Assembly (NCBI RefSeq): GCF_003019035.1
Contig: NZ_CP027447.1
DNA: 64,000 nt
Reading direction: 5' to 3' (one strand)
Source: Escherichia coli
Lineage (GTDB): Bacteria; Pseudomonadota; Gammaproteobacteria; Enterobacterales; Enterobacteriaceae
Below the pieces are notes generated by a model. That model was not told the origin of the DNA. It searched no databases and saw only the letters and a list, made by a program, of their open reading frames with translations. Positions 1 through 20,861 of this stretch are shown in pieces (within the stretch, counting starts at the first letter, position 1; each line of letters starts with the position of its first letter). The translations under genes were made by a program, and so were the position numbers.

Positions 1-188
1 ATGGTAGTTATGCTCGGGTTTTGACTGCTCCATGTCGTTCACTGCTACTTGATCAGCAAAGCACTCCTGACAGTAAGTACCGTTTTATTCTTAAATAGAA
101 AATAACAGCTGAATTACCATGGGAGCAGAAAAAAGACAAAGGCGATATCATGCTGCGTTCTAAAATTTTAATGTAAAAGGTGATGAAC

Positions 189-290
189 ATGGCAGGGATT
201 CAGGTTATCGCAGGAAGTTTTCCTAAAGGGTGGGCAAGCATGGGGTTCGGTACCATCGTGTTTGCCACCAATCCATGGAACGATGGGTAA
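189..290 (+). other. small ORF (33 aa, MAGIQVIAGSFPKGWASMGFGTIVFATNPWNDG) with SD AAGGTG 6 nt upstream
   Basis: My own translation; good Shine-Dalgarno spacing; followed by palindrome and terminator. No recognisable family. Confidence 0.2.
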
Positions 291-410
291 TGTCTGCATT
301 TTCATAATCTGTAAGCCTTTTACAATTATTAAAAATATGGCAGGCTAGTCTGGTCTCGCGAGACTGACTGAACCTCGGTCGGCTCACAGTGCATTCCTGT
401 GGGACGATGG

Positions 411-448
411 CCAGCCCGGCTTTCGGGTGCCGGGCTGGTCGTTCTTTC
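411..448 (+). terminator. rho-independent terminator (10-bp stem CCAGCCCGGC / GCCGGGCTGG, then T-rich TCGTTCTTTC)
   Basis: Perfect inverted repeat with 8-nt loop followed by a T-rich run on the + strand. Confidence 0.55.
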
Positions 449-494
449 ATGATGCGGCAGGGATAGTGGGATTTCTGTTAATGTGGTTTAGGGA

Positions 495-710
495 TTATCC
501 GGGGTGATTGTCTGCCTTTATCTGGTCCAGGGCATAAGTGATCCCTTCAGCAAAAACAGAAGTATCGAACTGCTTTTGTATTTCCTGAAAATGAACAGTG
601 GCACGACAGATACTCAGTTCTCCGCGATGTAACCGGATAATATCTTCCAGAACATTGTTCACTGCTTCGGCACGGCGCTGATGTTCTGTTAACGTTAATC
701 GGGGATTCAT
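495..710 (-). CDS. hypothetical protein, 71 aa
   Basis: ATG preceded by strong SD (AAGGAG, 7 nt spacing) on the - strand; downstream of the NTPase gene in the same orientation. No family recognised. Confidence 0.4.
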   Translation of the reverse strand: MNPRLTLTEHQRRAEAVNNVLEDIIRLHRGELSICRATVHFQEIQKQFDTSVFAEGITYALDQIKADNHPG

Positions 711-1113
711 GATGCACTCCTTAAATGATGATTTTTATGTACTCACCGGCAAAATATTCTGCCGATTACTGAACACGCATCCGGCACCTCAGGTTTTGAT
801 TTATTCTGGTTTTTTCGATATCCCGGACCAGGTTGATCACGACCAGAAAAAGTGCCGGTATTTTATTGATACGCTGATATGGCTTCGGGATAACAGCTAT
901 ATTCGTTACTCTCAGTTGCTGGCTGTGGGAGCGGCTGATGTCGTCCTCACGGAAAAAACGCTCTGTCTGCTCAATGCCATGCCGACCTTTCTGCAGCCCC
1001 GGCCCGTACCATTTAAAGAGTTGCTTCTGGATGCAGTAAAAACCGGCGAAAATGCAGTCATCGCTGAATGCGTATCCCGGATTATGCGTTACGTGTTTAA
1101 TGAACGTAAGTGA
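709..1113 (+). CDS. hypothetical protein, 134 aa (start overlaps the divergent 71-aa ORF start; 3' end overlaps the NTPase gene 3' end)
   Basis: ORF-track ORF; weak SD-like GGGGA before ATG. Could be spurious antisense ORF. Confidence 0.25.
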   Translation: MMHSLNDDFYVLTGKIFCRLLNTHPAPQVLIYSGFFDIPDQVDHDQKKCRYFIDTLIWLRDNSYIRYSQLLAVGAADVVLTEKTLCLLNAMPTFLQPRPVPFKELLLDAVKTGENAVIAECVSRIMRYVFNERK

Positions 1114-1832
1114 GGTTTATCTGCTGTCTGCATAATCCCGATAGCCAGTGCGAGGGGAAGTAATTCCGGGGAAACTCTTTCAAACAGCGATGCCCATTCT
1201 CCTCTCGCCATCACTCTGTCCAGCCCGCCCCCCAGCTGCATTTCAGCAATCTTCCTGATTTCCCGGAACAACGCCGCTTTGATCTCTTCATGCTCAGCTT
1301 TATTTTCCGGTGTCAGAATGTATTCGTCGAAGAACCGGGGAGGCTGGTTAACGGGGATTGTGTTTACCGGGATGTGTTCCTGTTTCCCGTACTTCGGGGA
1401 CGAACAACATTCTGTTGGCTGACCGGTGAGTTTACGTAACTCCTTCATGAGCAGCTCCTGATCGTAAACTGTCATCAGTGCCGCAATGGTGGCATGCAGT
1501 GCATCGGGCAGTATCCAGGGTTGCCGGCCCGTGGGGCATATAACATCCAGTAGCTCATTCGTCCGACAGATACGCTCCTCTCCGTATGACAACAGGCCCT
1601 GTCCCGTGTATTCCTCCAGCCTGATCACTGTGCCAGCCCGTGGCTTCTGCCAGGTCGTCAGATCATCGCCACTCATACGGCGCTCATTCTCCACGTCAGC
1701 AGCATCGACAATGACGCTGTTTCCGAGTTCCTGTTTCACCACTTCCTCTATCCGCGCCAGTACGTAACTTTTACCGCTGCCCACAGGACCGGACACGGTG
1801 ACAGTGATGACCGGATTCAGTGTATGTGTCAT
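1089..1832 (-). CDS. P-loop NTPase, 247 aa, Walker A GPVGSGKS at residues 15-22 (nucleotide/polynucleotide-kinase-like N-terminus), unassigned family
   Basis: Walker A motif read directly; transcribed antisense to the phage late operon; C-terminal 130 aa without recognisable motifs. Confidence 0.6.
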   Translation of the reverse strand: MTHTLNPVITVTVSGPVGSGKSYVLARIEEVVKQELGNSVIVDAADVENERRMSGDDLTTWQKPRAGTVIRLEEYTGQGLLSYGEERICRTNELLDVICPTGRQPWILPDALHATIAALMTVYDQELLMKELRKLTGQPTECCSSPKYGKQEHIPVNTIPVNQPPRFFDEYILTPENKAEHEEIKAALFREIRKIAEMQLGGGLDRVMARGEWASLFERVSPELLPLALAIGIMQTADKPHLRSLNT

Positions 1833-1962
1833 GTTGCATTCTCCTCTGTGAATAATTCATCGTTTATCCTGCACATCCCGTATCCCCGGCTCTCTTAACG
1901 CGCTTTAAAATCCTTCGCGCCCTGTATTTGTGATGCTGTCTCCACCAGACAAGGAGACACAC
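1833..1962. promoter_or_regulatory. divergent intergenic region; 7-bp inverted repeat TGTCTCC(1937-1943)/GGAGACA(1953-1959) whose 3' arm contains the SD of the first late gene
   Basis: Inverted repeat seen directly; position corresponds to the lys late promoter of Mu-like phages. Confidence 0.3.
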
Positions 1963-8938: not shown

Positions 8939-9152
8939 GTTTTCTCTCTTCAGGCGGGTGATTTATCATTGCCAGCGAATGAGGGGCTGTATTACCTTTA
9001 TAAAGGCTTTACAGCCTCTGTTTTATAACCGCTTCCGGTTCACCGCATTGCTTTCCCTGTCCTTCTCCCCTGATGTTTTCTAAAGCAGATTAAAATCGCC
9101 GGGCCTGCATTTCTCACAAACTGTCTCCGACAACATAACGCGGGACAGCAAA
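8939..9152 (+). promoter_or_regulatory. 214-bp intergenic region inside the head operon with an imperfect palindrome centred on TTTATAAA; candidate late promoter (position of Mu PI)
   Basis: Long gap in an otherwise tightly packed operon; palindrome seen at ~8985-9020. Confidence 0.3.
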
Positions 9153-10268
9153 ATGTCAGCCATTCACATTTTTAAAGCCGGTACTCATACCGATATGCAC
9201 GGCAAAAAACTGCCGTTCACGCCAGACGATCTTGCCGCCTGCGTGAAAGCCTATGACCCGTCCGTCCATGAAGCACCACTCGTGATTGGTCATCCCAGAA
9301 CGGAAGACCCGGCGTGGGGCTGGGTGAAAGCCCTGTCGCTCAGCGGCGTCGATCTGATGGCAGAGCCTGCCCAGCTGGACCCGCAGTTTGCTGAGATGGT
9401 CACCGACGGACGATTCAAAAAAGTGTCCGCCTCTTTCTACCTCCCGGATTCACCGTCCAATCCGAAGCCCGGCGTGCTCTACCTGCGCCATGTGGGCTTT
9501 CTCGGGGCACAGCCACCTTCCGTCAAGGGGCTGAAACAGGTGTCCTTCAGTGAGCAGGAAGAAGGTGTGGTGGAGTTCGCCGACTGGCAGGCCATCACGA
9601 ATGCCTCCCTGTGGGGAAAGCTGCGCGATTTTCTGATCGCCCGCTTCAGTCTGGACGAGGCAGAAAAAGTCCTGCCGGAATGGCAGCTCAACAGTCTGCG
9701 CGAAGAGGCGTACCGCGACACACTGTCGCAGGATGCAGCAGGTGCCCAATTCAGTGAGACAGGCCCGGGGCCGTCTTCCGCAAGTAACGAGGAATCATCG
9801 ATGACAAAAGAAGAGATTGAAGCCCTTCAGGAGGAGAACCGCCGCCTGAAGCAGCAGGCTGCTGATCGCGATGCGCGTGATGCACAGGTCAGACAGGAGC
9901 AACTGCATAAGGACAATGTGGCCTTTGCAGAAAAACTGGTCGCAGAGGGCCGTCTGGCTCCCCGCGCCTCCTCCGTGGTGGTTGCCCTGCTGGATGCCGT
10001 CGCCGGTGGCGACAAGCCGGTGGAGTTTGCTGAGGGGGAAAGCCGCACACCGCTGGCCACCGCCTTTCGTTCATTGCTCTCCGACGGGGAGCCGGTGATG
10101 AATTTCGCCGAACAGGCCACAAAAGAGCGTGTCGGCGACACGGTGAAGGTGGATGTGGCGGAGTTTGCGGAAGCCGATCCTGAGCGTCTGGCCCTGCATC
10201 AGAAAGCAGTGGCCCTGTCCAAAAAAGAAGGCATCAGCTATGAGGCTGCTGTCGCACGCTGCCTGTAA
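9153..10268 (+). CDS. head maturation protease (Mu I-like) with C-terminal scaffold region
   Basis: Mu I-like N-terminal region; coiled-coil C-terminal half. Confidence 0.7.
   Translation: MSAIHIFKAGTHTDMHGKKLPFTPDDLAACVKAYDPSVHEAPLVIGHPRTEDPAWGWVKALSLSGVDLMAEPAQLDPQFAEMVTDGRFKKVSASFYLPDSPSNPKPGVLYLRHVGFLGAQPPSVKGLKQVSFSEQEEGVVEFADWQAITNASLWGKLRDFLIARFSLDEAEKVLPEWQLNSLREEAYRDTLSQDAAGAQFSETGPGPSSASNEESSMTKEEIEALQEENRRLKQQAADRDARDAQVRQEQLHKDNVAFAEKLVAEGRLAPRASSVVVALLDAVAGGDKPVEFAEGESRTPLATAFRSLLSDGEPVMNFAEQATKERVGDTVKVDVAEFAEADPERLALHQKAVALSKKEGISYEAAVARCL
9801..10268 (+). CDS. nested in-frame scaffold protein (Mu Z-like), internal ATG with SD GAGGAA
   Basis: In-frame ATG at 9801 preceded by GAGGAA at 7 nt; Mu makes Z from an internal start in I. 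Confidence 0.4.
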   Translation: MTKEEIEALQEENRRLKQQAADRDARDAQVRQEQLHKDNVAFAEKLVAEGRLAPRASSVVVALLDAVAGGDKPVEFAEGESRTPLATAFRSLLSDGEPVMNFAEQATKERVGDTVKVDVAEFAEADPERLALHQKAVALSKKEGISYEAAVARCL

Positions 10269-14976: not shown

Positions 14977-14998
14977 GGGGCTCCGGCCCCTTCTTTTT
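14977..14998 (+). terminator. rho-independent terminator GGGGC-TCCG-GCCCC followed by TTCTTTTT
   Basis: GC stem plus T-tract read directly. Confidence 0.6.
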
Positions 14999-15066
14999 AA
15001 TCCCCTTTAATATCCGTCACGTCCACCGCCAGACATACTGCTCTGAATTTACAAAGGAGTATGATC

Positions 15067-20805: not shown

Positions 20806-20861
20806 ACCTTCTTAAACGCCTTTAATATCGGCGCTTACTTCCCGGGGGCAATACTGCCTCC

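What the first reader, a model, noticed from the sequence alone, without database searches (positions are those of the whole stretch)
495..1832. Unassignable antisense P-loop NTPase module at the prophage left flank
A 247-aa protein with an N-terminal Walker A (GPVGSGKS, kinase-like placement) is encoded antisense to the entire late operon, followed by a 71-aa ORF with a strong SD and a convergent/overlapping 134-aa ORF. The two small ORFs have start codons overlapping on opposite strands (708-711). I cannot assign any of the three to a known family. Genes transcribed against the grain of a prophage structural operon are typical moron/defence or toxin-antitoxin cargo, so this is the best candidate in the window for an undescribed accessory system.
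Basis: partly seen in the sequence, partly recalled or inferred. Interest (0 to 1): 0.6.

Follow-up and report, generated by a model that had tools for sequence, protein, structure and literature searches.

The report
Uncharacterised accessory genes inside Mu-like prophage
Three real but uncharacterised genes sit in a swappable cargo slot in the middle of a common Mu-like E. coli prophage, not at its edge; the genes on one strand appear to be switched on with the late lysis genes, and the function of all three is still unknown.

Summary
All three ORFs are real, conserved genes under purifying selection (dN/dS 0.17-0.48). The "prophage left flank" is a window-edge artefact. The module lies inside a BcepMu-like transposable prophage, in the variable slot between the immunity repressor and the holin gene.

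The 247-aa protein is a mosaic. A ~75-aa minimal Walker-A domain (G20 and K21 invariant) is fused to shuffled small helical cassettes. It has no conserved Walker B, no predicted sheet, and no specific P-loop family.

There are two separable units. The N-domain gene always lies divergent from the holin gene. The second unit is a triad that always travels together: the C-terminal "DWVTSR" cassette, the antisense 134-aa weakly winged-helix-like protein, and the 71-aa protein. In Serratia the triad occurs without the P-loop domain.

A conserved palindrome between the P-loop and holin genes has the geometry of Mu Mor/C-dependent late promoters. It recurs before three other late operons (0.02 expected by chance). 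It carries a mirrored -10-like hexamer pointing into the P-loop gene. The leftward genes are therefore probably late lytic genes, usually with Dam downstream, much like Mu's mom operon.

There are no PADLOC, Pfam, PDB or literature matches. The leading guess is a phage-side accessory role, possibly counter-defence, and this is unproven. It is a new variant of a known kind, of moderate interest.

The parts
1089..1832 (-). Gene C, 247 aa: a mosaic protein (phrog_3787) made of a minimal Walker-A N-domain, a middle cassette and a C-terminal 'DWVTSR' cassette.
   Evidence: ORF. phrog_3787 E 1e-166. Only residues 1-76 are conserved in distant relatives. dN/dS 0.20-0.31.
1605..1832 (-). N-terminal mini P-loop domain (residues 1-76). 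The Walker A motif GPVGSGKS is at nt 1767-1790. Conserved residues are E50, R51 and W61.
   Evidence: G20 and K21 are invariant; G15, G18, S22, I28, E50 and W61 are at least 90% conserved in 40 sequences. AF2 pLDDT exceeds 90 for residues 11-70, but DSSP finds no sheet. Pfam hits cover only beta1-Walker A-alpha1 of many P-loop families. Stand-alone proteins of 75-90 aa exist.
1092..1295 (-). C-terminal 'DWVTSR' helical cassette of gene C (residues ~180-246). It is homologous to a free-standing 89-aa gene in Serratia.
   Evidence: BLASTP to L012 C89 gives 46% identity, E 1e-10. HMM hit at 1092-1295, E 1e-26. L012 C89 matches positions 176-230 of phrog_3787.
709..1113 (+). Gene B, 134 aa (phrog_2266), encoded antisense between C and A. 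It is weakly winged-helix-like and has no conserved catalytic-type residues.
495..710 (-). Gene A, 71 aa (phrog_4490): a small helical protein, probably a distant paralogue of the DWVTSR-type cassettes.
   Evidence: ORF with an AAGGAG Shine-Dalgarno sequence. phrog_4490 E 1e-49. The Serratia homologue has 38% identity. hhalign against the cassette scores 21.9 versus 8.5 +/- 1.7 for shuffles. Linking evidence comes from L059 and phrog_25421.
1895..1908 (.). Palindrome TTAACGC|GCTTTAA: the putative binding site of a Mor/C-family late activator, shared by two divergent promoters.
   Evidence: Conserved in 8 lineages. The composite motif is found upstream of 3 late operons against 0.02 expected. 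The geometry matches Mu C sites centred at -43.5 (PMC2582627).
1932..1937 (+). The -10-like hexamer GATGCT of the rightward late promoter (P_lys), 23 nt from the dyad and followed by GTCTCC.
1866..1871 (-). The mirrored -10-like hexamer CAGGAT, exactly 23 nt from the dyad on the other side. This is the putative leftward late promoter for gene C.
   Evidence: Position and sequence are conserved in 7 lineages, including Serratia with CAAGAT.
449..491 (-). A dyad-like CTAAACCACATTAA, then 23 nt, then CATCAT, downstream of A and upstream of the dam remnant. This is a possible extra late promoter for dam.
   Evidence: Hit to the relaxed motif, 0.075 expected per window. Also present in L002. The evidence is weak.
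260..305 (-). The 5' remnant of the Dam methylase gene (MKMQTLPIVPWIGGK). Dam is intact at this position in most relatives.
   Evidence: ORF translation. Dam HMM hit at 201-305. Relatives.
189..262 (+). The 5' remnant of a 193-aa membrane-protein cargo gene (phrog_12025). It is a recombination scar.
   Evidence: Identical N-terminus to the L036 193-aa protein.
1..98 (+). The 3' end of a 328-aa membrane-protein gene (phrog_10002) that follows the repressor gene in L003, L036 and L037.

Best explanation
SHOWN. The region is the variable cargo slot of a BcepMu-like transposable prophage of E. coli, between the immunity repressor and the holin/SLT lysis cassette. It holds two separable genetic units.

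Unit 1 is a gene that always lies divergent from the holin gene. It encodes a ~75-aa minimal Walker-A domain. Its 3' half is exchanged by recombination, which gives mosaic C-termini built from small helical cassettes that also exist as free-standing phage ORFs.

Unit 2 is a triad inherited as a block. It comprises a 'DWVTSR' helical cassette (fused here to unit 1, free-standing in Serratia), the antisense 134-aa protein B, and the 71-aa protein A, which is probably a paralogue of the cassette. The geometry is conserved: B and C overlap tail-to-tail, and A and B abut start-to-start.

INFERRED. A palindrome between gene C and the holin gene is the binding site of the phage's Mor/C-type late activator and serves both directions. 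Gene C would then be transcribed late in lytic growth. No terminator lies between C and A, so A would be transcribed too, and in most relatives Dam as well. This resembles Mu's late mom operon. That transcript is antisense to the whole of B, so B and the leftward genes should be expressed in a mutually exclusive way.

SPECULATIVE. None of the proteins shows conserved catalytic residues, so they probably act by binding. The N-domain would bind a nucleotide or phosphate ligand, and the helical cassettes and B would bind proteins or DNA. The most likely role is a phage-side accessory function in the lytic cycle, such as counter-defence or host takeover alongside Dam anti-restriction. A lysogen-expressed defence system or a toxin-antitoxin pair is less likely.
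For: Position and variability of the slot.

Mosaic structure of the family.

Co-occurrence table from an HMM scan of 69 loci:
- A, B and the cassette always occur together in four divergent lineages. The exceptions are clean 325-bp deletions of B.
- The N-domain occurs without the triad in many loci.
- The triad occurs without the N-domain in Serratia.

Geometry is conserved at 27-53% identity.

All three genes are under purifying selection.

Late-promoter evidence:
- Conserved intergenic blocks.
- The composite dyad-N23-nAnnCT motif lies upstream of the holin gene and of the ORFs at 9153 and 15061, against 0.02 expected. A fourth site lies before 20862.
- The mirrored CAGGAT sits exactly 23 nt from the dyad in 7 lineages.
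- Mu C-dependent late promoters have a -10, no -35, and a dyad at -43.5 (PMC2582627).
- Relatives encode a Mor-family activator.

No minus-strand terminator lies between C and A.

Dam lies directly downstream in most loci.

Distant N-domain genes sit in other phage-like contigs among small accessory genes: Dam, dGTP_diPhyd_N, HNH, and a faint Acb2/Tad1-like neighbour.

There are no PADLOC hits.
Against: - There are no expression, binding or phenotype data. Promoter assignment rests on sequence geometry alone.
- The leftward hexamer CAGGAT is a poor -10 and lacks the GTCTCC block of the four rightward promoters. The conserved block could instead be an upstream element of P_lys.
- No promoter for B was found.
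- Other cargo in the same slot looks like lysogenic-conversion or defence genes: a SLATT-like effector and membrane proteins. A defence role for B therefore cannot be excluded.
- No anti-defence family library was available for testing.
Confidence: 0.35

Rival explanations
1. This is prophage-encoded defence, superinfection-exclusion or toxin-antitoxin cargo. On this reading the module is expressed in the lysogen and protects the host from other phages, or stabilises the prophage.
For: The slot is a cargo hotspot. Its alternative occupants include a SLATT-like 2TM effector (PADLOC PDLC00712 E 3.7e-5; NCBIfam SLATT_4 E 2.5e-6, below cut-off) and several membrane proteins. A and B have lower G+C than the late genes. 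B has the same orientation as the repressor and those cargo genes.
Against: No PADLOC, NCBIfam or Pfam match for A, B or C. The genes lie on opposite strands and are not a co-directional operon. The leftward genes carry late-promoter geometry. The N-domain is too small to be an NTPase motor. A plus-strand terminator-like hairpin left of A would block read-through from the repressor operon. N-domain relatives occur in other phage contigs among early or accessory genes.
Confidence: 0.2
2. This is a regulatory device. B would be a winged-helix DNA-binding regulator. The two paralogous small helical proteins (A and the DWVTSR cassette) would be its late-expressed binding partners or anti-regulators. 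The fully antisense layout would enforce an either/or state, for example tuning late, lysis or dam expression.
Confidence: 0.2
3. The ORFs are non-functional debris: recombination scars and fused fragments with no selected function.
For: The region immediately to the left (99-494) is a patchwork of gene remnants. The C-termini of the P-loop family are mosaic, and truncated versions of 128 and 158 aa exist.
Against: dN/dS is 0.17-0.48. Proteins are conserved at 27-53% identity across genera with the layout retained. The Walker-A residues are invariant across 40 sequences. The genes are intact in 491-582 of 5426 complete E. coli genomes.
Confidence: 0.05

Closest known systems
Phage Mu late operons, especially com-mom (P_mom), activated by the Mor/C family
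   Same: The host element is a transposable phage. The promoter lacks a -35 and has an activator dyad about 43 nt upstream of the inferred start. The same promoter architecture recurs four times before late operons. A DNA-modification gene (Dam here, Mom in Mu) lies on an accessory late transcript.
   Different: The dyad sequence (TTAAAGC|GCTTTAA) is specific to this phage group. Here it appears to work in both directions. The accessory genes (minimal P-loop, helical cassettes, antisense B) have no counterpart in Mu. Nothing here has been tested experimentally.
Morons and accessory-region cargo of temperate phages (for example the BcepMu gp18-20 slot and KS10 genes 11-12)
   Same: The location is a variable slot between conserved modules. 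Presence varies, G+C is lower, and different cassettes are exchanged between related prophages. The products are hypothetical proteins.
   Different: Classical morons are autonomous units with their own sigma-70 promoter and terminator, and they are expressed in the lysogen. Here the leftward genes seem wired into the phage's late regulon, and one gene is embedded fully antisense.
P-loop NTPases (kinase-like, ABC, AAA: Pfam AAA_30, KAP_NTPase, Zeta_toxin, Cytidylate_kin)
   Same: There is an N-terminal strand-GxxGxGKS-helix element, with invariant Gly and Lys.
   Different: The domain is only ~75 aa. It has no family-wide Walker B, no further core strands, and no structural match. Matches cover only about 40 residues of any model, and some members have GKN. 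It resembles a minimal phosphate-binding module more than an enzyme.
Anti-defence loci with an associated HTH regulator (for example acr-aca operons of Mu-like Pseudomonas phages)
   Same: These are small, fast-evolving, non-enzymatic proteins in an accessory locus of a transposable phage, next to a small helix-turn-helix-type protein.
   Different: There is no sequence similarity. The putative regulator here is on the opposite strand, the expression signals are late rather than early, and no inhibitory activity is known. This is an analogy only.

Membership tests
P-loop NTPase | Walker A motif GxxxxGK[ST] after a beta-strand | tested here: met
   GPVGSGKS at residues 15-22. G20 and K21 are invariant, and G15, G18 and S22 are at least 90% conserved in 40 sequences. 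A few members have GKN.
P-loop NTPase | Walker B (hhhhD/E) conserved across the family | tested here: not met
   The window protein has VIVD43, but this column varies across the family (D, E, I, G, T, V, L). Only an acidic residue near position 46 and E50 are broadly conserved.
P-loop NTPase | Full alpha/beta core with a parallel sheet of five or more strands, recognisable by structure comparison | tested here: not met
P-loop NTPase | Assignment to a specific Pfam or NCBIfam P-loop family above threshold | tested here: not met
   The best result is AAA_30, i-E 6e-4 on the isolated domain. Matches cover only model positions ~20-60, and many families score similarly.
Known anti-phage defence systems (PADLOC-DB v2) | A significant match of any component to a defence-system HMM | tested here: not met
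   A and B give no hits. C gives only Walker-A-level noise, E at least 0.011.
Type II toxin-antitoxin module | A co-directional bicistronic operon with a recognisable toxin or antitoxin family | tested here: not met
   The genes are on opposite strands with overlapping ends. There are no TA families in Pfam, NCBIfam or PADLOC. The Zeta_toxin hit is noise at the Walker A motif only.
DUF2513 (PF10711), the label given by a source to the Serratia homologue of B | A match to the Pfam model | tested here: not met
   None of six B-family members, including P0083, matches any Pfam family at E of 0.1 or better.
Winged helix-turn-helix DNA-binding proteins | An H-T-H plus beta-hairpin wing fold, with structural matches to winged-helix proteins | tested here: inconclusive
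Mor/C-dependent late transcription unit (Mu type) | A -10 hexamer, no -35, and a dyad-symmetric activator site centred near -43.5, repeated at several late operons | tested here: met
   The dyad-N23-hexamer motif lies upstream of the holin gene and of ORFs at 9153 and 15061, with a fourth site before 20862. Only 0.02 are expected by chance. The leftward mirror is conserved in 7 lineages. The reference geometry comes from PMC2582627.
Mor/C-dependent late transcription unit (Mu type) | Activator binding and activator-dependent transcription | not testable with these tools
   This needs footprinting or reporter assays with the prophage's Mor-family protein, which is encoded in relatives and lies outside the window.
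Moron | Variable presence between conserved phage genes and atypical base composition | tested here: met
   Slot variants are shown. A and B have about 47% G+C against 57-60% for the late genes.
Moron | Its own sigma-70 promoter and terminator, and expression from the prophage | tested here: inconclusive
   Consensus scans give no convincing promoter for B or A, and counts do not exceed shuffles. No expression data are available.

The most novel reading that the evidence does not exclude
The ~75-aa N-domain may be a natural minimal P-loop: a strand, phosphate-binding loop and helix with a conserved Glu-Arg and Trp. It would work without hydrolysis, binding or sequestering a nucleotide-type ligand, possibly an immune signalling nucleotide. 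It would serve as the constant 'handle' of late-expressed phage proteins whose exchangeable helical cassettes target different host factors. The linked triad (two paralogous helical proteins around an antisense winged-helix-like gene) would be a previously undescribed counter-defence or switch module built on fully overlapping antisense transcription.
Probability: 0.12. Interest if true: 0.7.

Novelty: new variant of a known kind. Interest (0 to 1): 0.4.

Why it matters
This prophage family is present in about 11% of complete E. coli genomes, including ST131 and ABU 83972, so its cargo is widespread in clinically relevant strains.

The analysis turns three "hypothetical proteins" into a defined and testable picture:
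- a cargo slot with precise boundaries;
- two separable units;
- a predicted bidirectional late promoter with a specific activator site;
- a minimal Walker-A domain family that recurs in unrelated phages.

If the leftward genes prove to be late-expressed counter-defence factors, the slot would be a useful place to mine further phage-host conflict genes in transposable phages. If the mini P-loop binds nucleotides without a full NTPase fold, it would also interest people who study how the P-loop fold evolved.

Tried and rejected
- PADLOC, NCBIfam and Pfam on all three proteins gave nothing beyond Walker-A noise.
- The DUF2513 label for B, taken from a source name, was rejected by Pfam scans of six members.
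- Sequence searches of PDB with profiles of C, B, A and the cassette gave nothing meaningful.
- A first hhalign of A against the cassette was negative, with probability 2.9%. After adding L016's unannotated A-like ORF it rose to a score of 21.9, against a shuffle maximum of 14.3. L059 and phrog_25421 add a link between the two. I treat the paralogy as probable, not proven.
- Scans of 100,044 species-representative genomes with B and with the N-domain returned zero loci.
- Sigma-70 promoter and terminator scans gave no convincing promoter for B.
- Literature searches for the PHROG and WP identifiers, PhiKM/Bcepmuvirus, and accessory or anti-defence cargo in transposable phages found no description of these genes.
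- The 'housekeeping replication/packaging ATPase' idea is rejected. No such homology exists, and the prophage has its own terminase (in the window) and, in relatives, an ExeA-family ATPase next to the transposase.
Full report
**Observation**

The three ORFs are present as described.
- C is 247 aa at 1089..1832 (-), with GPVGSGKS at residues 15-22.
- B is 134 aa at 709..1113 (+).
- A is 71 aa at 495..710 (-), preceded by AAGGAG.
- The A and B start codons overlap by 2 nt.
- B and C overlap tail-to-tail by 25 nt.

They are genuine genes.
- Each matches a PHROG of unknown function over its full length: phrog_3787, phrog_2266 and phrog_4490, with E 1e-166 to 1e-43.
- RefSeq annotates all three in E. 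coli.
- Pairwise dN/dS between alleles is 0.17-0.48.
- Homologues at 27-53% identity occur in other lineages.

**Location**

The 'prophage left flank' is an artefact of where the window begins.
- Window 260-2400 matches 635 of 5426 complete E. coli genomes at 95-99% identity. It also matches Escherichia phage PhiKM, genus Bcepmuvirus.
- In complete relatives (L002, L003) the order has three parts:
  - a leftward early operon (Mor ... Gam, an ExeA-family ATPase, transposase, a Ner-like protein);
  - a rightward repressor, followed by the variable slot;
  - the holin, SLT, terminase and remaining late genes.
- The module occupies that central slot.
- BcepMu itself has gp18-20 between its repressor (gp17) and holin (gp21), according to the KS10 paper (PMC2628397).
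- The host is E. coli. The prophage's right end abuts the hyc operon at about 25.7 kb.

The slot is a recombination hotspot.

| Locus | Slot content |
|---|---|
| L035 | Dam, A, B, C |
| L004/L005 | P-loop gene followed directly by Dam |
| L036 | 328-aa and 193-aa membrane proteins facing a 158-aa truncated P-loop gene |
| L037 | SLATT-like 2TM effector facing a 128-aa truncated P-loop gene |
| KP12 | an unrelated 188-aa gene |

In the window itself, positions 1-494 are a patchwork:
- the 3' end of the 328-aa gene (1-98);
- a 5' stub of the 193-aa gene (189-262);
- a 5' stub of dam (305-260).

A and B have about 47% G+C, against 57-60% in the late genes.

**The 247-aa protein is a mosaic**

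- A word-indexed search found only 19 clusters, all from E. coli.
- An exhaustive HMMER search of 1.84 billion representatives found 54 proteins. The distant ones share only residues 1-76 with the query.
- Their C-terminal parts are reshuffled cassettes. Several of these match separate small PHROGs of unknown function. None has a Pfam domain.

The N-domain has these properties.
- G20 and K21 are invariant. G15, G18, S22, I28, E50 and W61 are nearly invariant.
- It exists on its own as proteins of 75-90 aa.
- It matches many P-loop Pfam families, but only over the strand-Walker A-helix element, and no specific family.
- No Walker B is conserved across the family.
- AlphaFold is confident for residues 11-70, but DSSP finds no sheet there.

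I therefore call it a minimal or degenerate P-loop module, not an NTPase.

**Two separable units**

I built HMMs for the N-domain, B, A and the C-terminal 'DWVTSR' cassette and scanned all 69 fetched loci.
- A, B and the cassette always occur together. This holds in four divergent lineages: the E. coli type, Serratia L012-15, L016/17 and L018.
- The exceptions are variants with a clean 325-bp deletion that removes B (L003, L028/29).
- In Serratia the cassette is a free-standing 89-aa gene with no P-loop domain.
- The N-domain gene occurs without the triad in many BcepMu-like prophages, always divergent from the holin gene.
- The N-domain also occurs in unrelated phage-like contigs.

The geometry of the triad is conserved.
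- The B/C 3' overlap is 25, 37, 54 and 4 nt in the four lineages.
- The A and B start codons overlap by 2, 8 and 2 nt, or are separated by 1 nt.

A and the cassette are probably distant paralogues.
- hhalign scores 21.9, against 8.5 +/- 1.7 (maximum 14.3) for 100 column shuffles.
- In L059, two tandem cassettes are hit by the cassette HMM and the A HMM respectively.
- The A-position genes of L016 and L018 fall in phrog_25421, which also matches internal cassettes of other P-loop proteins.

B has few clues.
- It has no Pfam match. This includes DUF2513, the label one source gives to the Serratia homologue.
- Its low-confidence model has a helix-helix-hairpin topology.

**Expression signals**

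The 130-bp region between C and the holin gene has conserved blocks in eight lineages.
- There is a palindrome, TTAAAGC|GCTTTAA (window 1895-1908).
- Exactly 23 nt to its right lies GATGCT followed by GTCTCC.
- The same architecture lies upstream of the late ORFs at 9153 and 15061. A fourth copy, with a 24-nt spacer, lies before 20862.
- The composite motif occurs three times on the plus strand, against 0.02 expected.
- This is the design of Mu's four C-dependent late promoters: a -10 hexamer, no -35, and a dyad centred at -43.5 (PMC2582627).
- Relatives encode a Mor-family activator.

Exactly 23 nt to the left of the same dyad, on the other strand, lies CAGGAT. It is conserved in position in seven lineages, including Serratia, whose leftward gene lacks the P-loop domain.

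From this I infer a bidirectional late promoter.
- Gene C would be a late gene.
- No minus-strand terminator lies between C and A, so A is probably late as well.
- In most relatives Dam would also be on this transcript, which parallels Mu's late mom operon.
- That transcript is antisense to the whole of B, so the two should be expressed in a mutually exclusive way.
- A plus-strand terminator-like hairpin left of A (window 411-438; a 14-bp stem in Serratia) would stop read-through from the repressor side.
- I found no convincing promoter for B.

**Function**

Nothing matches PADLOC, NCBIfam, Pfam or solved structures beyond the Walker A motif. No paper mentions these families. The conserved positions are mostly structural, so the proteins probably bind rather than catalyse.

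| Reading | Confidence |
|---|---|
| Phage-side accessory function in the lytic cycle, plausibly counter-defence alongside Dam anti-restriction | 0.35 |
| Lysogen-expressed defence, exclusion or TA cargo | 0.2 |
| Regulatory switch in which A and the cassette act on a winged-helix B | 0.2 |
| Non-functional debris | 0.05 |

Selection and conservation argue against the last.

**Verdict**

- The interpretation as accessory cargo of unknown family is partly right.
- The specific ideas of a P-loop NTPase, a defence system or a TA pair at the prophage edge are not supported.
- The region is an undescribed variant of phage accessory cargo with an unusual, conserved antisense architecture.
- It is common in E. 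coli: the P-loop gene is in 582 and B in 491 of 5426 complete genomes.
- Interest is moderate, because no function has been shown.

Noticed in passing
window 1895-1937, 9080-9122, 14997-15039, 20812-20855: Four promoter-like sites share one architecture: a TTAA-N6-TTAA dyad, 23-24 nt, an nAnnCT hexamer, then G(T/C)CTCC. Each lies upstream of a late operon (lysis, head, tail, baseplate). This is a candidate Mor/C-type late regulon for BcepMu-like enterobacterial prophages.
   Followed up: partly
window 1-494: This stretch is a patchwork of recombination scars. It holds the 3' end of a 328-aa membrane-protein gene (phrog_10002, with a weak Flk-like N-terminus), a 5' stub of a 193-aa membrane-protein gene (phrog_12025), and a 15-codon 5' stub of dam on the other strand.
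   Followed up: partly
window 411-450 (+); L012 6737-6780: A G+C-rich hairpin (CCAGCCCGGC...GCCGGGCTGG) followed by a T-rich tail lies just left of gene A. The Serratia counterpart is a 14-bp-stem terminator. It would stop rightward transcription coming from the repressor side.
   Followed up: no
L037 1836-2384 (E. coli A24): The same slot carries a 182-aa SLATT-like two-transmembrane effector (PADLOC 'Effector 2TM' E 3.7e-5; NCBIfam SLATT_4 E 2.5e-6, below cut-off), facing a truncated 128-aa P-loop gene.
   Followed up: partly
L021 4154-4537 (= L040): A second, divergent B-family paralogue (~127 aa; phrog_2266 E 1e-35) stands alone between an intact Dam gene and a dam remnant. B-type genes therefore move as cargo on their own.
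   Followed up: no
L003 14762/14763; L028, L029, L039, L041: A clean 325-bp deletion (window 763-1087) recurs. It removes B but leaves A and C intact and adjacent, ending one base from C's stop codon.
   Followed up: partly
L030 5659-6681, L031 2066-3088: In an unrelated phage-like metagenome contig, the gene next to a distant N-domain protein carries a faint Acb2/Tad1-hairpin Pfam hit. Acb2 and Tad1 are anti-CBASS and anti-Thoeris sponge families. This is a hint only.
   Followed up: no
window ~25690: The prophage's right end abuts the hyc (formate hydrogenlyase) operon. From 25.7 kb onward the window is ordinary E. coli chromosome.
   Followed up: no
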